Virus genome (UHGV): UHGV-0229041
Source: a virus
DNA: 36,243 nt
Direction: 5' to 3' (one strand)
The first letter of the stretch is position 1; each line of letters starts with the position of its first letter. Shown here piece after piece: positions 25,513-32,926 of the stretch. The position numbers were made by a program, and so were the translations under genes. The notes under the pieces were generated by a model, which searched no databases, was not told where the DNA came from, and saw only the letters and a program-made list of their open reading frames with translations.

Positions 25513-26007
25513 TCATTTCCAATTGCAAGACTGTGAAATTTTTTCCACAACCTTATCAATCTCAGACAAGTCAAACTCAACTACTTGCATAGTTGATCCA
25601 TAAGGTTCAAACCCAAAAATAGCTTTTTTATGCTTAGCCAAGGTCTTTATAAATTGTATTGGTTGTGGAGCAAATGCAGAATCACCGCCTTCCCCACCTC
25701 CCCAAACACTCTTGACCGGCTTTCCGCCATCTAACCGCACTGTAATTCTTGGGTTGTCCGACCCCATATAATCATTGAATGATAAATAGGCATCTGTTTT
25801 GTTATCACTACAACGCAACACCAGTGAAGTTGCACGATCAGTACCTGCTTTGTTATATGAATCTGGTGATAAATTAAGAGCCACAAAGTCAGTCTGGTCA
25901 GTCATTTTATTTATCTCAGACTTTGTTATCCACGGCCCTAACTTCTCTACACCAGCATTTGCTGTAAACGAGGCACTTATGACAAAGGCTAAAATAAATT
26001 TTCTCAT
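25513..26007 (-). CDS. Hypothetical secreted/periplasmic protein with signal peptide
   Basis: MRKFILAFVISASFTANA signal-peptide-like N-terminus; AGGAGA Shine-Dalgarno; two Cys in the mature part. Confidence 0.55.
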   Translation of the reverse strand: MRKFILAFVISASFTANAGVEKLGPWITKSEINKMTDQTDFVALNLSPDSYNKAGTDRATSLVLRCSDNKTDAYLSFNDYMGSDNPRITVRLDGGKPVKSVWGGGEGGDSAFAPQPIQFIKTLAKHKKAIFGFEPYGSTMQVVEFDLSEIDKVVEKISQSCNWK

Positions 26008-26153
26008 AACCCTATCTCCTTGGATTTAAAGAACTAAATATTATCAAGTCTCTTGCCACTAGAAAACCCACTTTATTTCCAAACTCTGACGGCATTCCTG
26101 AAAATCCGCTTCATACTCACTTGCCCCGCCCTATCATCCTGAGTAGCTAACCG

Positions 26154-26327
26154 TTAAACAAACGTTCGCCAGACCTTACCATCAATGACCAGGATTCCTG
26201 CCCGCGCCATTTTTGCCGCAGCCTGATTTATGCTGGTTAATGTCATACCTGTTGTCGCAGCAACGTCCGGCGCACAGAAGCTCTTGTGCGTCTCCAGATA
26301 ATGAATAATTGCCTCTTTGCCCGTCAT
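26154..26327 (-). pseudogene. ren: ren, N-terminal 57 codons only (truncated relative to about 96-aa lambda Ren)
   Basis: MTGKEAIIHYLETHKSFCAPDVAATTGMTLTSINQAAAKMARAGILVIDGKVWRTFV matches the recalled N-terminus of lambda Ren; ATGA overlap with the P stop. Confidence 0.6.
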
Positions 26328-27951: not shown

Positions 27952-28037
27952 AATTCCTCCCGCAATGAGTGTGTTACGATTTGCACCTGAAAGTCGGTTC
28001 TGTTCCAGCAGACCGGCTTTCGCCATTTCTGAACCTG

Positions 28038-28583
28038 TCATATCGCCCCCAGCATGGTAGTAACCATCGCCATCAATGGACCAGCCAGATCCGGGTCCAC
28101 ACGAAACATCGACACAATACCTTCACTCATTTCCTTCAGTTTCTGGTGGCGTGGTGCGTTGAGAATGACAGCCTGTTTTGCCTCACTGAGTTCCTTTTCC
28201 ATTTCAGCCAACCTAGCCATGAAGCTATCCTGCTCAACCAGGTAACCGCGATATTCCAGCGGTAGTACCGCCAGAATTGCCGGGGTCAGTTCACGCACGT
28301 TATTTCGGTATTTTTCAGAATCGAATTTGTTATCGAGGAAGCGGAACAGCTTCTGGCGTGCACGGCTGACATCATCAGGGAAATCGATGGTGCCGCCGCC
28401 CTGCTCCCGATACTCATTCACAATGAGTGCGGCAACAACATCCTGATTATCTGCAGCCGACCAGGCGCGAACGGCATCACGGATTTTTTCGTGGCCTGGC
28501 GCCTGTTTTGTTTGAGAACGATTTATCACCGCAGTCGGGCTAAATCCGCTAGTCTGTTGGTATGTAAGTGGTTGCATAGTCAT
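28038..28583 (-). CDS. YdaT-like regulatory protein (cII-position gene)
   Basis: 181-aa ORF between the cro-like gene and O, Rac ydaS-ydaT-like arrangement. Confidence 0.55.
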   Translation of the reverse strand: MTMQPLTYQQTSGFSPTAVINRSQTKQAPGHEKIRDAVRAWSAADNQDVVAALIVNEYREQGGGTIDFPDDVSRARQKLFRFLDNKFDSEKYRNNVRELTPAILAVLPLEYRGYLVEQDSFMARLAEMEKELSEAKQAVILNAPRHQKLKEMSEGIVSMFRVDPDLAGPLMAMVTTMLGAI

Positions 28584-28607
28584 TGCCTTATCAGTTAACG
28601 CCGCAGT

Positions 28608-28841
28608 TTAGGCGGCAGAATTACTCGCGTTAAACAATGGTGCGAGGTCGGGACGAATATCTGCTGGTTTAATCTTTCCACCAGTGGCTGAGACAATTTT
28701 CATTACATAGCGGGCATCAATTCCGCCACCGTGTAGCCAACGCCAAACTGTGGGTTGGGCTACACCGCATAGATCTGCCAGTCGTTTTTGACTACCTGTA
28801 ATACTGATTGCGAGTTGAATGGTTTGATTTGTCATTATCAA
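28608..28841 (-). CDS. Cro-like HTH regulator (YdaS family)
   Basis: 77 aa, HTH GSQKRLADLCGVAQPTVWRW, divergent from cI. Confidence 0.7.
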   Translation of the reverse strand: MIMTNQTIQLAISITGSQKRLADLCGVAQPTVWRWLHGGGIDARYVMKIVSATGGKIKPADIRPDLAPLFNASNSAA

Positions 28842-28945
28842 TTCCTATTGGTATTACAATGAATGAATAATAGCAATGCGTATTAATCCAAGCAATAGCA
28901 AAACGTGTTTTGACCATCAATACGCAAGCGTATAAATTAAAACTT
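28842..28945. promoter_or_regulatory. Divergent cI/cro promoter-operator region (OR-like)
   Basis: Intergenic between divergent repressor genes; contains AATAGCAAT (28869 to 28877), CAATAGCAA (28893 to 28901) and the imperfect palindrome ATACGCAAGCGTAT. Confidence 0.5.
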
Positions 28946-29638
28946 ATGAAAAAAGAAACTCTTGCTGATCGCTTAAACCTAGCGATGGAACAATCTGGAA
29001 TGTCTCAAGGCGCTCTTGCAAAGGCGTCTGGCGTAGCTCAACCCACAATCTGGAGACTGACAAGCGGCAACGCGCGCGGCTCAACAAAAATTGTTGAAAT
29101 AGCTAATGCATTGGGTGTTCGAACAGAATGGCTCTCATCAGGCATAGGCCCGATGAGAAATGACGGTCAACAATCAGGGAAGCCTGCTGTCAGCCATTCA
29201 AAATACTTCAAGATTGACGTTCTTGATATAGAAGTCAGTGCCGGACCGGGTGTCATCAACCGTGAGTTTGTGGAAGTTCTACGCTCGGTTGAGTACTCGT
29301 TTGACGATGCTCGTCACATGTTCGATGGCAGGAAGGCGGAAAATATCCGCATCATTAACGTGCGCGGTGACAGCATGTCAGGAACGATCGAACCAGGTGA
29401 TCTGCTGTTCGTTGATATCACTGTTAAATCTTTCGACGGTGATGGTATCTATGCGTTTCTGTACGACGACACAGCCCATGTAAAGCGTCTGCAAATGATG
29501 AAGGATAAGCTGCTGGTTATCTCTGATAACAAGAGCTACTCACCGTGGGACCCGATCGAGAAAGACGAGATGAACCGGGTGTTCATCTTCGGTAAGGTTA
29601 TTGGGAGCATGCCGCAGACTTACCGAAAGCATGGTTAA
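28946..29638 (+). CDS. cI: CI-type repressor with HTH and S24 LexA-like autopeptidase domain (alternative start 28910)
   Basis: N-terminal HTH MSQGALAKASGVAQPTIWRL; C-terminal VRGDSMSGTIEPGDLLFVD with catalytic Ser motif and downstream Lys. Confidence 0.85.
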   Translation: MKKETLADRLNLAMEQSGMSQGALAKASGVAQPTIWRLTSGNARGSTKIVEIANALGVRTEWLSSGIGPMRNDGQQSGKPAVSHSKYFKIDVLDIEVSAGPGVINREFVEVLRSVEYSFDDARHMFDGRKAENIRIINVRGDSMSGTIEPGDLLFVDITVKSFDGDGIYAFLYDDTAHVKRLQMMKDKLLVISDNKSYSPWDPIEKDEMNRVFIFGKVIGSMPQTYRKHG

Positions 29639-29869
29639 ACGACCTGCATTGCGGGTCACACCGCATATTTATAGCCAAAGCATACCTAGCAATGGACTGA
29701 ATGCAGCTTACAAGATATCATTGTTTTTCAAAGAAAAGGGAACAATACCCTTTTGAAAAGCAGCAATCATTGTCAACGGCACTAATAGTACGCAATGAGC
29801 AAAACTTAGCTGTTTAATAAGCATGCAAATAATGAAGGTATCATCATATTAACAATGTGTTGGTGAAGC

Positions 29870-30193
29870 ATGAACGACAATAACAAGAATACTCGATCGC
29901 CAGAAGAGCATGAAGCTGTAGAAAAAGCGTTATCTGTTACACGAGCAGATATCGCGGAGTATTTTACTTCATTCGAAAAGCAGCATGGCGATATGTTGTG
30001 TCCGCTATGCAAAACATCTCTTTGGGCCATCACGCCTAGAATTGATAGTGATGAGCATGCAGCTATTATCACTTTACCATTGCCTAATGCATCTGGCAGG
30101 GGGGTTTGGGCATATCCTATTATATGCTCTGGATGTGGCTATATAATTCATCTTTCTGCAAGTTTTGTCGTAGGCAAAATCAAAGGAGAATGA
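29870..30193 (+). CDS. Hypothetical zinc-ribbon-like protein, first gene of the rex-position operon
   Basis: 107 aa with CPLCK and CSGCGY Cys pairs; AT-rich; ATGA overlap with the next gene. Confidence 0.5.
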   Translation: MNDNNKNTRSPEEHEAVEKALSVTRADIAEYFTSFEKQHGDMLCPLCKTSLWAITPRIDSDEHAAIITLPLPNASGRGVWAYPIICSGCGYIIHLSASFVVGKIKGE

Positions 30194-30648
30194 AAGTGGC
30201 TACTGTTGCAATAGATGGTTATTCATTCATCACGGTTTCCGATAGTTGCATCTCTGACACAGCGCTTCCACCTATTGAAAATACTTATGGTGACAATATA
30301 TACATACCCAAAATCGTTGAAACCATAGGTCCGGTTTATCGCCAAAAAGACTTAGATCACAGATACATACTTTACGCAGTGGCTGTATCATTAGTGCTCA
30401 CTTTAAGTGTTGTTGTATGGTCTATAGGAGGTAGGTTTATGGTCTACATTCCATTATACGTTGCACTTGCACCTATCGTTTATTGGTTACTGAAGATTTC
30501 CTATGCTTACTGCCTCGTAAAATGTGCTGGCTCCAGTCTCCTAGATGACTTTGATTCTCACCATATTGAGAACAACAGGTTTGTAAAGCGTATTAATAGT
30601 ATTTCATTCAGAGTAGTTGCTATAACAAAAAAACTTTTCTGGAGATAA
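30190..30648 (+). CDS. Hypothetical membrane protein, rex-position operon gene 2 (alternative GTG start 30196)
   Basis: About 152 aa with two central hydrophobic helices; start overlaps the gene 1 stop. Confidence 0.5.
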   Translation: MKVATVAIDGYSFITVSDSCISDTALPPIENTYGDNIYIPKIVETIGPVYRQKDLDHRYILYAVAVSLVLTLSVVVWSIGGRFMVYIPLYVALAPIVYWLLKISYAYCLVKCAGSSLLDDFDSHHIENNRFVKRINSISFRVVAITKKLFWR

Positions 30649-30649
30649 G

Positions 30650-31072
30650 ATGGCAGAAGGGCGTCTAAAAACCGCGGGTAAAAACAGCCTGCCTTTTGCC
30701 ATTACCAGTGTTCTTTGTGGTTACATTAACCACATGGTTCCTGAAATTTTTCCGGAAGGGGAAATGCGCCAATGGGCATATAGCACGATCCCAATGCTAT
30801 CGCTGGTTTTACTGTACATTATTAGGACAATTAAAGATTTTGGAACTATGAGTCTGGCTCGTCTGGCTATTACTATATGTGCTACCCCAGAGAAAAAGCG
30901 CCTCAAACTCATAATGTCTGATAAGCATGTCAGTGAGGAAACAAAAGCTATAGCCGAGGCTCGTTATAATCAAATTATTCAAAAAGAATTAGAAATAGGC
31001 TCCAATGCGGTTGATTATGTAGTAGGTATGCCAATTGTACATAATCAACCCAGACCAACAATTGATGAATAA
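30650..31072 (+). CDS. Hypothetical membrane protein, rex-position operon gene 3
   Basis: 140 aa, GGAG Shine-Dalgarno 5 nt upstream, starts 1 nt after the gene 2 stop; hydrophobic N-terminal half. Confidence 0.5.
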   Translation: MAEGRLKTAGKNSLPFAITSVLCGYINHMVPEIFPEGEMRQWAYSTIPMLSLVLLYIIRTIKDFGTMSLARLAITICATPEKKRLKLIMSDKHVSEETKAIAEARYNQIIQKELEIGSNAVDYVVGMPIVHNQPRPTIDE

Positions 31073-31083
31073 TTCGTAAAAAA

Positions 31084-31110
31084 CCCGGCCACCGTGCCGG
31101 GTTTTCTTTT
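31084..31110 (+). terminator. Intrinsic terminator ending the cI plus rex-position operon
   Basis: CCCGGC-CACCGT-GCCGGG hairpin followed by TTTTCTTTT. Confidence 0.65.
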
Positions 31111-31229
31111 GCCTCCCCTCATCACACAAACCGTTCAAAAAACCACCACACCTCACTTCAGTTATCGCTATGCGATGCAAGTCACAAAATTAATTCTTTT
31201 TGCTATCAAACATTTAATATCAAAACACA

Positions 31230-31275
31230 TCAACCAATAGCAATAAGTATTGATATCACCAATAGCAATAGCTAT
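31230..31275. promoter_or_regulatory. OL-like operator / early-left promoter region
   Basis: Two direct copies of ACCAATAGCAATA (31233 to 31245 and 31258 to 31270) sharing the AATAGCAA core with the OR region. Confidence 0.45.
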
Positions 31276-31471
31276 TATCACCATATCGCAACAACACAAC
31301 GATACGGCAACCACCTGATTCACCGTTGCGATGACCGCTTAGATCCGCAGTTTGAATTTCAGCAGGCTTCGGGGAGTGCGAGGGGTGAAACGGACGCGTG
31401 AACGTCGGTGTGACCAGCTGAAATCAACACAACACTTTATACCTCAGTCGCTTCAACGAGGCGGCTTAGTT

Positions 31472-31762
31472 ATGACAACCGGCGGCCATCCACCGCCTGA
31501 ATACGCGCAGAAGTCTCTATATGTTCAGCAGCCCAGCTTACGGGCAGGAGTTTTTATGGTTCATCAACATTACGGAACGCAGACCGTTAATCGCGGCGCG
31601 GTCATGCCAGGAATGCTGGTCAAACACAAAGATGGTACCTGGACTGCATCAGCTAATTTACGCGGACGGCTTTATCTGCATCGCGGCATCGAGCGCACTT
31701 ATACCCGTGATTTGCTCGTGGAAGTTTTTCTCGACGGACGCGGTAACGGCCTGAATCACTAA
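31472..31762 (+). CDS. Hypothetical early protein upstream of gam (lambda kil position)
   Basis: 96-aa ORF from first ATG with GAGG Shine-Dalgarno; no recognised family. Confidence 0.35.
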   Translation: MTTGGHPPPEYAQKSLYVQQPSLRAGVFMVHQHYGTQTVNRGAVMPGMLVKHKDGTWTASANLRGRLYLHRGIERTYTRDLLVEVFLDGRGNGLNH

Positions 31763-31838
31763 CCCCCCTTTCCTGTTTTCCTAATCAGCCTGGCATTTCG
31801 CGGGCGATATTTTCACAGCCATTTTCAGGAGTTCAGCC

Positions 31839-32135
31839 ATGAACGCTTATTACATTCAGGATCGTCTTGAGGCTCAGAGCTGGGCGCGTCACTACCAGCA
31901 GATCGCCCGTGAAGAGAAAGAGGCAGAACTGGCAGACGACATGGAAAAAGGCCTGCCCCAGCATTTGTTTGAATCGCTCTGCATCGATCATTTGCAACGC
32001 CACGGGGCCAGCAAAAAAGCCATTACCCGTGCATTTGATGACGATGTTGAGTTTCAGGAGCGCATGGCAGAACACATCCGGTACATGGTTGAAACCATTG
32101 CTCACCATCAGGTTGATATTGATTCAGAGGTATAA
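31839..32135 (+). CDS. gam: Gam (RecBCD inhibitor), short GamS form
   Basis: [60 protein letters not shown], near identical to recalled lambda Gam. Confidence 0.95.
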
Positions 32136-32140
32136 AACGG

Positions 32141-32926
32141 ATGAGTACAGCACTCGCAACGCTGGCTGGGAAGCTGGCTGAACGTGTCGGCATGGATTCT
32201 GTCGACCCACAGGAACTGATCACCACTCTTCGCCAGACGGCATTTAAAGGTGATGCCAGCGATGCGCAGTTCATCGCATTGTTGATCGTCGCCAACCAGT
32301 ACGGCCTTAATCCGTGGACGAAAGAAATTTACGCTTTCCCTGATAAGCAGAACGGCATCGTTCCGGTGGTGGGCGTTGATGGCTGGTCCCGCATCATCAA
32401 TGAAAACCAGCAGTTTGATGGCATGGACTTTGAACAGGACAACGAATCCTGCACATGCCGGATTTACCGCAAAGACCGCAATCATCCGATCTGCGTTACC
32501 GAGTGGATGGATGAATGCCGCCGCGAACCATTCAAAACCCGCGAAGGCAGAGAAATCACCGGACCGTGGCAGTCGCATCCCAAACGGATGTTACGGCATA
32601 AAGCCATGATTCAGTGTGCCCGTCTGGCCTTCGGATTTGCGGGTATCTATGACAAGGATGAAGCCGAGCGCATTGTCGAAAATACCGCATACACTGCAGA
32701 ACGTCAGCCGGAACGCGACATCACTCCGGTTAACGATGAAACCATGCAGGAAATTAACACTCTGCTGATCGCCCTGGATAAAACATGGGATGACGACTTA
32801 TTGCCGCTCTGTTCCCAGATATTTCGCCGCGACATTCGCGCATCGTCAGAACTGACACAGGCCGAAGCAGTGAAAGCTCTTGGATTCCTGAAACAAAAAG
32901 CCACTGAGCAGAAGGTGGCAGCATGA
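32141..32926 (+). CDS. bet: Bet (Red-beta single-strand annealing protein)
   Basis: [66 protein letters not shown], near identical to recalled lambda Bet. Confidence 0.95.

What the first reader, a model, noticed from the sequence alone, without database searches (positions are those of the whole stretch)
29639..31112. Three-gene membrane/zinc-ribbon operon in the rexAB slot downstream of cI
Seen in sequence: three translationally coupled ORFs follow cI on the same strand (ATGA overlap at 30190 to 30193; 1-nt gap with GGAG Shine-Dalgarno before 30650), end at a hairpin plus T-run terminator (31084 to 31110), and sit just before the OL-like repeats. The DNA is visibly more AT-rich than the flanking phage backbone. 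Gene 1 has two Cys pairs (CPLCK, CSGCGY); genes 2 and 3 have hydrophobic helices. Established knowledge: in lambda the cI-to-OL slot holds rexA-rexB, an abortive-infection system expressed from the lysogen, and this slot is a recognised hotspot for prophage defence cargo. None of the three proteins resembles RexA/RexB or any family I recognise, so this is a candidate undescribed lysogen-expressed exclusion or abortive-infection module.
Basis: partly seen in the sequence, partly recalled or inferred. Interest (0 to 1): 0.8.

Follow-up and report, generated by a model that had tools for sequence, protein, structure and literature searches.

The report
Orphan three-gene cargo behind prophage repressor
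A lambda-like E. coli prophage carries, in the variable slot behind its repressor gene where phage lambda keeps its rexAB exclusion genes, a rare three-gene operon for a zinc-binding protein and two membrane proteins that match no known family, which makes it an untested candidate for a new anti-phage system.

Summary
Three tightly packed, co-oriented genes follow the repressor gene cI: g1 29870-30193, g2 30196-30648 and g3 30650-31072. They end at a strong terminator just before the OL/PL region, and they have about 40% GC against about 50% in the flanks.

- **Cargo block:** prophages with the identical cI protein lose homology exactly at the cI stop codon and regain it at 31075-31084. The block is therefore 29640-31074.
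- **Hotspot:** in other E. coli prophages the same slot holds a SIR2 protein, HipA+DUF3037, a GevT/GevA-type pair, an MqsA/SecB set, other unknowns, or nothing.
- **Real genes:** gene order is conserved at 40-55% identity in Klebsiella prophages, phage PHB10 and IMG/VR contigs, and dN/dS is 0.05-0.30.
- **No known family:** nothing matched in Pfam, NCBIfam, PADLOC or PDB.
- **g1:** it gives a confident four-cysteine zinc-ribbon model with no structural neighbour. Its relatives always sit just downstream of a repressor gene where the upstream sequence could be read, and they have interchangeable partner genes.

Function is untested. My best guess, at about 0.4, is a Rex-like module expressed in the lysogen, with a cytoplasmic zinc-ribbon sensor or regulator and a membrane effector. 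One correction: g2 probably starts at GTG 30196, not at the ATGA overlap.

The parts
28910..28938 (+). PRM-like promoter (TTGACC-17-TAAATT). It ends 7 nt before the cI ATG, so the cI mRNA would be leaderless as in lambda. It is the presumed promoter of the cI-g1-g2-g3 transcript.
   Evidence: Consensus scan. Such sites are not enriched over shuffles, so this is an inference.
28946..29638 (+). cI-type repressor gene (HTH + S24 peptidase), the left border of the slot
   Evidence: Pfam PF00717 at 1.5e-18 and PF01381. RefSeq WP_001295669.1.
29640..31074 (+). Cargo block: the stretch that differs between prophages sharing the same cI and the same kil-gam flank
   Evidence: Homology to seven other prophage loci stops at 29637-29639 and resumes at 31075-31084, or at 31319 in the SIR2 locus L031. 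GC is 0.40 here and 0.50 in the flanks.
29639..29869 (+). 231-nt spacer inside the cargo. It holds only a weak 5-bp hairpin (29650-29665) and a weak promoter-like site (29693-29721).
   Evidence: The spacer is not conserved between cassette versions. No Rfam match.
29870..30193 (+). g1: 107-aa acidic cytoplasmic four-cysteine zinc-ribbon protein (C44, C47, C86, C89)
   Evidence: Cysteines invariant in 36 sequences. AlphaFold2 pLDDT 92.3, pTM 0.80. No structural neighbour. 32 cluster representatives among 1.84 billion proteins. dN/dS 0.09-0.32.
30196..30648 (+). g2: 150-aa inner-membrane protein with a soluble N-terminal segment of about 55 aa carrying the IENxxGD motif, followed by a two-helix hairpin whose second helix is nearly invariant. 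An alternative ATG lies at 30190.
   Evidence: Start codon. dN/dS 0.07-0.34.
30650..31072 (+). g3: 140-aa membrane protein with two N-terminal hydrophobic helices and a helical C-terminal half
   Evidence: The AlphaFold2 model is all-helical but of low confidence, pLDDT 62. dN/dS 0.05-0.15.
31080..31112 (+). Intrinsic terminator (10-pair stem plus T-run) shared by all cargo variants. It is the analogue of lambda's terminator after rexB.
   Evidence: The same ACCCGGCC...GCCGGGTTTTT hairpin follows the cassette in 14 of 16 loci, and the other two have an equivalent GC-rich hairpin with a T-run. This stretch is the only part of the query that matches other phages.
31198..31278 (+). OL-like operator repeats and a PL-like promoter (TTGATA-17-TATTAT), the right border of the immunity region

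Best explanation
I read the block as a mobile cargo operon, transcribed with cI in the lysogen, that encodes a membrane-associated anti-phage module built on the same logic as lambda RexAB but from unrelated proteins.

Proposed mechanism: g1 is a cytoplasmic zinc-ribbon protein that acts as sensor or regulator and binds the conserved cytoplasmic N-terminal segment of g2 (the IENxxGD motif). g2 and g3 form an inner-membrane hetero-oligomer. On infection by another phage, g1 releases or activates this membrane complex, which depolarises or permeabilises the membrane and aborts the infection.

What is shown:
- gene structure, conservation and purifying selection;
- the exact cargo boundaries;
- the hotspot nature of the slot;
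- the zinc-ribbon and membrane character of the proteins;
- the modular pairing of g1 relatives with different partner genes.

What is inferred:
- co-transcription with cI;
- the g1-g2 contact;
- the g2-g3 complex;
- the anti-phage role and the membrane-damage step.
For: - **Hotspot.** The slot is bounded by the cI stop codon and a shared terminator. It carries alternative cargo behind the identical cI protein WP_001295669.1 or close variants. The alternatives are SIR2 (PADLOC PDC-S25, 1e-234), HipA+DUF3037 (PDC-M66A/B), a hypothetical+ASCH pair (PDC-M11A/B, deposited as GevT toxin/GevA antitoxin in phage PhiR47_2), hypothetical+MqsA+SecB, hypothetical+DUF6414, or nothing.
- **Transcription layout.** The genes share cI's strand. 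No strong terminator lies between cI and g1, and a strong one follows g3. In homologous loci the gap from the repressor gene to g1 is mostly 31-126 nt.
- **One unit.** g1-g2-g3 order and tight junctions are kept in 11 or more distinct versions at 40-55% identity, behind at least two unrelated repressor types. All three genes are under purifying selection.
- **g1 properties.** g1 is acidic, which argues against nucleic-acid binding. Its model is a confident zinc ribbon.
- **Constant g1, varying partners.** In relatives the partner is a single-pass membrane coiled-coil protein, a two-gene membrane pair, or soluble proteins. That is the pattern expected of a sensor or regulator coupled to interchangeable effectors.
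- **Shared motif.** The motif [ILV]EN..G[DNS] lies at residues 26-32 of every g2 and of three independent enterobacterial single-pass partners. Background is 2 hits in 72,482 six-frame residues. hhalign gives E 2-4e-4.
Against: - There is no functional or expression data of any kind.
- Nothing matched any PADLOC model, including defence candidates.
- The promoter calls are not above chance.
- The profile-profile support for the shared g2 motif is weak, at 36-48% probability.
- No complex could be modelled, and the g3 model is poor.
- A position in a hotspot is only guilt by association. Such slots also carry non-defence cargo.
- Small membrane proteins next to repressor genes are also typical of injection blockers, which do not kill the cell.
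Confidence: 0.4

Rival explanations
1. Superinfection exclusion at the inner membrane. g2/g3 block DNA entry of incoming phages, as do P22 SieA, T4 Imm and HK97 gp15, without killing the cell. g1 would be an assembly or regulatory factor.
For: The operon encodes two small inner-membrane proteins with very conserved membrane helices, which suggests a specific contact with a membrane partner. It is placed next to the repressor gene and is probably expressed in the lysogen. From general knowledge, prophage exclusion proteins of this size are common.
Against: The conserved component of the wider family is the cytoplasmic g1, not the membrane proteins. Some g1 modules have only soluble partners (L009, L038). 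The bulk of g2 and g3 outside the membrane is predicted to be cytoplasmic, whereas known injection blockers usually act at the periplasmic face.
Confidence: 0.2
2. Non-defence cargo. The operon could be a toxin-antitoxin-like addiction module that stabilises the prophage, with g1 as antitoxin and g2/g3 as membrane toxin. It could also be a lysogenic-conversion function that changes host envelope physiology.
For: The small first gene followed by tightly coupled downstream genes resembles type II toxin-antitoxin operons. Slot-mates include toxin-antitoxin-type sets, namely MqsA/SecB and the pair deposited as GevT/GevA. Zinc-ribbon antitoxins exist, for example MqsA (general knowledge), but the structural matches to it here are not significant.
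Against: There is no homology to any toxin or antitoxin family. Toxin-antitoxin modules in prophage hotspots often act in defence anyway, so this rival overlaps the main explanation.
Confidence: 0.2
3. Regulator of the prophage's own lysis-lysogeny decision. The membrane complex could tune repressor or cII-type protein stability, or couple envelope signals to induction.
For: g1 relatives lie immediately downstream of a repressor gene in six of the seven groups of loci examined outside the main cassette.
Against: The repressors upstream are of unrelated types (an S24-type cI and a short HTH protein of about 128 aa), so a specific partnership with the repressor is unlikely. The same repressor works with entirely different cargo or with an empty slot. 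Adjacency is explained by the hotspot itself.
Confidence: 0.08
4. The ORFs are chance reading frames in AT-rich junk DNA.
For: There are no database families, and the search for homologous proteins returned only 1-5 homologous clusters per gene.
Against: Gene order is conserved and dN/dS is 0.05-0.34 across many loci. The cysteines and motifs are invariant. The g1 structure model is confident.
Confidence: 0.01

Closest known systems
Lambda RexA/RexB
   Same: It occupies the same slot (between the cI stop and the terminator before OL/PL), on the same strand as cI, and is presumably on the same lysogenic transcript. It has the same broad logic of a soluble cytoplasmic protein plus polytopic inner-membrane protein(s).
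   Different: There is no sequence similarity. There are three genes instead of two. The soluble protein is a 107-aa zinc ribbon rather than the much larger RexA. The membrane part is two small proteins with two helices each rather than a single four-helix RexB (general knowledge). The phenotype is unknown.
Prophage superinfection-exclusion membrane proteins (P22 SieA, T4 Imm, HK97 gp15, lactococcal Sie2009)
   Same: These are small inner-membrane proteins expressed from a resident phage, often encoded next to the repressor or integrase gene.
   Different: No homology was detected. Those are single proteins without a cytoplasmic zinc-ribbon partner, whereas here the zinc-ribbon gene is the conserved element of the family.
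Other cargo of the same slot: SIR2 (PADLOC PDC-S25), HipA+DUF3037 (PDC-M66), hypothetical+ASCH (PDC-M11, deposited as GevT/GevA), MqsA+SecB set
   Same: They share identical insertion breakpoints, the same terminator and the same orientation.
   Different: The proteins are entirely unrelated, and the window's three proteins hit none of the PADLOC models.
Generic zinc ribbons (TFIIS / Rpa12 C-terminal ribbon, NrdR N-terminus, MqsA N-terminus)
   Same: g1 has two CxxC knuckles on beta hairpins. These are the only structures that Foldseek ranks near g1.

Membership tests
Lambda RexAB abortive-infection system | Proteins homologous to RexA and RexB | tested here: not met
   No match to any RexA or RexB model, and no significant match to any other family, in Pfam, NCBIfam, PADLOC or PHROGs at E up to 1.
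Lambda RexAB abortive-infection system | Location between cI and the terminator before OL/PL, on the cI strand | tested here: met
Lambda RexAB abortive-infection system | Exclusion of specific phages with membrane depolarisation | not testable with these tools
   Needs plaque assays and membrane-potential measurements.
Known or candidate defence systems in PADLOC-DB v2.0.0 | Significant match of at least one component to a PADLOC model | tested here: not met
   g1 and g2 give 0 families. g3 gives only a 15-bit chance-level hit to Cas3d. Homologues and partner proteins of relatives also give nothing significant.
Prophage cargo ('moron') in a recombination hotspot | Present or absent, or replaced, between identical flanks in related prophages | tested here: met
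   Breakpoints lie at 29637-29639 and, in six of seven loci, at 31075-31084. At least six alternative contents and one empty slot were seen. The block is in only 5 of 5426 complete E. coli genomes.
Prophage cargo ('moron') in a recombination hotspot | Base composition different from the backbone | tested here: met
   GC is 0.40 in the cassette and 0.50 in the flanks, in the window and in all enterobacterial homologous loci.
Prophage cargo ('moron') in a recombination hotspot | Own promoter and terminator | tested here: inconclusive
   The terminator belongs to the backbone. Only weak promoter-like matches lie in the spacer, at chance level. The spacer is not conserved.
Zinc-ribbon fold (g1) | Four Cys in two CxxC knuckles on beta hairpins | tested here: met
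   C44, C47, C86 and C89 are invariant in 36 sequences. The model has strands at 52-54, 67-70, 78-86 and 92-96, with pLDDT 92.
Type II toxin-antitoxin module | Homology of either component to a known toxin or antitoxin family | tested here: not met
   The MqsA-like structural hit has E 0.34 and is not significant.
Type II toxin-antitoxin module | Toxicity of the downstream gene(s) relieved by the upstream gene | not testable with these tools
   Needs expression experiments.
PHROG phrog_4293 (unknown function) | Match to the family profile | tested here: inconclusive
   g1 matches at E 6e-5, but only over residues 81-106. The relative in L027 matches at E 7.8e-7 over residues 17-55. These are partial matches, and the family has no known function.

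The most novel reading that the evidence does not exclude
The g1 zinc-ribbon family, about 32 clusters at 50% identity and with no structural neighbour, may define a new modular family of systems in the prophage immunity region, from Enterobacteria to Pseudomonas. In this reading one constant small sensor or adaptor protein is wired to interchangeable effectors. The effectors seen are a pair of two-helix membrane proteins (this window), a single-pass membrane coiled-coil protein, and a soluble phrog_5954-type protein. The system would act as a previously unnamed abortive-infection or exclusion system.
Probability: 0.35. Interest if true: 0.75.

Novelty: new variant of a known kind. Interest (0 to 1): 0.6.

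Why it matters
The slot downstream of cI is where lambda's rexAB, the first abortive-infection system described, resides. This work shows that in a common family of E. coli prophages the slot behaves as a cassette exchange site with base-precise borders.

The three-gene cargo here is one of the contents that no current defence catalogue recognises. It is small (1.4 kb), conserved as a unit, and built around a protein with a confidently predicted but unmatched fold. That makes it a cheap and well-defined candidate for experiment.

If it protects against phages, it would add a new sensor/effector family. It would also give a handle on how small zinc-ribbon proteins control membrane effectors. 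If it does not, it would be a clean example of non-defence cargo in a hotspot that is otherwise rich in defence genes.

Tried and rejected
- **Family searches.** The three proteins, and every member of the g2 and g3 alignments, gave nothing significant in Pfam, NCBIfam, PADLOC or PHROGs. The 15-bit Cas3 hits of g3 are far below the 69-bit cut-off and were rejected as chance.
- **PDB by sequence profile.** Nothing was found.
- **g3 structure.** The model has pLDDT 62, too poor for a fold search.
- **Species-representative genomes.** A scan with the g1 alignment found no relative. A more divergent alignment had no searchable conserved stretch.
- **RNA.** An Rfam scan of 28000-32500 found nothing. 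The spacers upstream of g1 are not conserved between versions.
- **Literature.** No paper mentions the RefSeq accessions, and the DefensePredictor supplements do not list them. The source of the 'GevT/GevA' names could not be found. Brenes & Laub 2025 is not held in the library.
- **Type C partner proteins.** A link between them and the ENxxG motif was rejected (hhalign E 0.19; no motif).
Full report
**1. What is there**

The window is a lambda-like prophage of E. coli. The stretch examined (28600-32100) matches the chromosomes of strains MB15 and O157:H16 Santai at 99.9-100%, and in Santai the prophage lies next to tRNA-Thr and proA.

In window orientation the immunity region reads as follows:
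- replication genes O and P, a YdaT-type cII-slot gene and a cro-type gene on the minus strand;
- cI (28946-29638; HTH + S24 peptidase) on the plus strand;
- three ORFs on the plus strand;
- a terminator, then operator-like repeats with a PL-like promoter;
- kil, gam, bet and exo on the plus strand.

The three ORFs are g1 (29870-30193, 107 aa), g2 (30196-30648, 150 aa) and g3 (30650-31072, 140 aa).

Two details need correcting. First, g2 almost certainly starts at GTG 30196. That start aligns with the start of every homologue, is the RefSeq start, and has GGAG 7 nt upstream. The ATG at 30190 is only 1 nt from that GGAG. Second, the terminator is part of the phage backbone rather than the cargo, as shown in section 3.

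**2. The genes are real and form one unit**

Searches of 5.8 billion clustered proteins returned only 1-5 related clusters per gene. The genomic contexts of those relatives show the same g1-g2-g3 order in several places:
- two different Klebsiella prophages (L003, L006);
- Escherichia phage PHB10 (L008);
- 14 IMG/VR contigs besides two copies of the window's own version.

Amino-acid identity to the window is 40-55%, and tblastn confirms all three genes in every locus. The junctions stay tight: g2 starts 2-6 nt after the g1 stop, and g3 overlaps g2 by 1-11 nt or, in the window, follows after 1 nt. For pairs that are not saturated, dN/dS is 0.09-0.28 for g1, 0.14-0.30 for g2 and 0.05-0.15 for g3. 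Invariant columns include the four cysteines of g1, P-IEN-x-GD and GG..M.YIPLY.AL.P..Y in g2, and LP...CGY...P...P.G....WAY...P.L in g3.

**3. The slot is a cargo exchange site with exact borders**

I searched 28600-32100 against 5426 complete E. coli genomes. Only five carry the whole stretch. Many others match the cI side and the kil-gam side with something else in between.

Pairwise alignment against seven such loci puts the left breakpoint at 29637-29639, the cI stop codon. The right breakpoint is at 31075-31084, the foot of the terminator hairpin, in six of them; in the SIR2 locus L031 homology resumes only at 31319.

Behind the identical repressor protein WP_001295669.1 or close variants, the slot contains:
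- a 543-aa SIR2 protein (PADLOC PDC-S25, E 1e-234);
- a HipA-family kinase plus DUF3037 (PDC-M66A/B);
- a 353-aa protein plus an ASCH protein (PDC-M11A/B). A pair of the same sizes and layout is deposited as 'GevT toxin / GevA antitoxin' in this slot of phage PhiR47_2;
- a hypothetical protein plus DUF6414;
- a hypothetical protein plus an MqsA-family antitoxin plus SecB;
- two other unknown proteins;
- or nothing at all.

The same ACCCGGCC...GCCGGGTTTTT terminator follows the cassette in 14 of the 16 loci examined, and the other two have an equivalent GC-rich hairpin with a T-run. It is also the only part of the query that matches other phages in GenBank. In every locus the cassette has lower GC than its flanks, by about 10 points in the enterobacterial loci.

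**4. What the proteins look like**

- **g2.** It has a soluble N-terminal segment of about 55 aa and a two-helix hairpin (residues 55-108). The short connecting loop and the basic C-terminal tail suggest that both ends are cytoplasmic.
- **g3.** It has a basic N-terminus, one moderately and one clearly hydrophobic helix, and a helical C-terminal half. Its model is all-helical but of low confidence.
- **Profile searches.** Profiles of g2 and g3 hit nothing in Pfam or PDB.

**5. The wider g1 family**

More distant g1 relatives were traced in phage and IMG/VR sequences. In all but one group of loci (L029) the g1 relative lies directly downstream of a repressor gene and is followed by the same kind of terminator. 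The partner genes differ.

- **Type A** is the window's three-gene form.
- **Type B** has one partner of 156-170 aa, with an N-terminal segment, one membrane helix and a coiled coil. Examples are L027/L028, L030 and L040. The Pseudomonas loci L029 and L010 (phage Aurca01) are more divergent.
- **Type C** has two soluble partners, the second matching PHROG 5954. It occurs in Yersinia phage vB_YenM_30.14 (L009); L038 has the same layout with a visibly similar second partner (not scanned against PHROGs).

The motif [ILV]EN..G[DNS] sits at residues 26-32 in every type A g2 and in the three enterobacterial type B lineages. It occurs only twice in the 72,482 residues of the window's six-frame translation. 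Profile-profile comparison aligns exactly this segment, though weakly (E 2-4e-4, probability 36-48%). I take this as suggestive evidence that the N-terminal segment of the partner is the element that goes with g1. The motif is absent from the Pseudomonas and type C partners.

The upstream repressors are of at least two unrelated types, an S24-type cI and a short HTH protein of about 128 aa. The adjacency therefore reflects the slot and not a partnership with a particular repressor.

**6. How it most likely works**

*Layout.* A PRM-like promoter ends 7 nt before the cI ATG. No strong terminator lies between cI and g1, and a strong one follows g3. This matches the lambda cI-rexA-rexB transcript (plus general knowledge of lambda).

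*Function.* Given the layout, the defence-rich hotspot, a constant small cytoplasmic protein and interchangeable, mostly membrane-anchored partners, I commit to a Rex-like exclusion module expressed in the lysogen. In this model g1 senses infection or holds the effector in check through the N-terminal segment of g2, and g2/g3 form the inner-membrane effector that collapses membrane integrity. My confidence is about 0.4.

*Rivals:*
- a non-lethal block of DNA entry (0.2);
- a toxin-antitoxin-like addiction module or another host-conversion function (0.2);
- regulation of the prophage's own lysis-lysogeny switch (0.08);
- chance ORFs (0.01, refuted by the conservation data).

Only the gene structure, conservation, slot behaviour and protein architecture are shown. 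Expression, protein contacts and phenotype are inferred.

**7. Comparison with known systems and novelty**

The module shares position, orientation and two-part logic with RexAB. It fails the homology test for RexAB and for every family in the libraries searched, so it is not a member of that or any other named family tested. It is not recognised by PADLOC-DB 2.0.0. I found no paper that mentions its accessions.

I rate it a new variant of a known kind: hotspot cargo in the prophage immunity region with a soluble component plus membrane components. It is built from orphan protein families, one of which has a fold without neighbours. It is rare, occurring in 5 of 5426 complete E. coli genomes, 3 of 50,697 phage records for the whole g1 family and about 300 contigs in the large assembly collection.

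Interest is 0.6. It is a well-delimited, cheap-to-test candidate in a verified hotspot, but there is no functional evidence, and many such candidates exist.

Noticed in passing
window 31250-31762: No N-type antiterminator gene lies between the PL-like promoter (31250-31278) and kil (31556-31762). There is only a leader of about 270 nt. The cro and cII-slot genes are of the YdaS/YdaT type. How early-left antitermination works in this prophage family is unclear. Rfam found nothing here.
   Followed up: partly
window 28910-28948: The PRM-like promoter (TTGACC-17-TAAATT) ends 7 nt before the cI ATG at 28946, so the cI mRNA would be leaderless as in lambda.
   Followed up: no
window 30042-30069: A 10-of-12 promoter-like match (TTGATA-16-TATTAT) lies inside g1 and faces g2-g3. 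It recalls lambda pLIT inside rexA. Promoter-like sites are not enriched over shuffles in this AT-rich DNA, so it may be chance.
   Followed up: no
window 29132-29159 (minus strand): A terminator-like hairpin with a 12-pair stem and a T-rich tail lies on the minus strand inside the cI coding sequence.
   Followed up: no
L009 3905-4904; L038 3001-3932: These loci hold a variant module in which the g1-type zinc-ribbon gene is followed by two soluble proteins and no membrane protein. In L009 the second matches PHROG 5954 (unknown function), and in both it carries a W-H-Y-H-I-G motif.
   Followed up: partly
L033 1367-2877 (NZ_CP148445.1): Here the same cI-downstream slot holds a hypothetical protein, an MqsA-family antitoxin and a SecB chaperone. 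This resembles toxin-antitoxin-chaperone systems but sits inside a lambdoid prophage.
   Followed up: no
L032 1389-2388 and L037 1362-2912: Other slot contents have no PADLOC match: a small hypothetical protein plus a DUF6414 protein, and a 340-aa plus 168-aa pair of hypothetical proteins (only the DUF6414 and 340-aa proteins were scanned). These are further uncharacterised cargo of the same hotspot.
   Followed up: no
L001 1875-2689 (NZ_CP007592.1; window about 25513-26327): In the nin region of this prophage RefSeq annotates a protein as 'type VI secretion system-associated protein TagO' next to a frameshifted ren pseudogene. That is an odd annotation for a lambdoid prophage.
   Followed up: no
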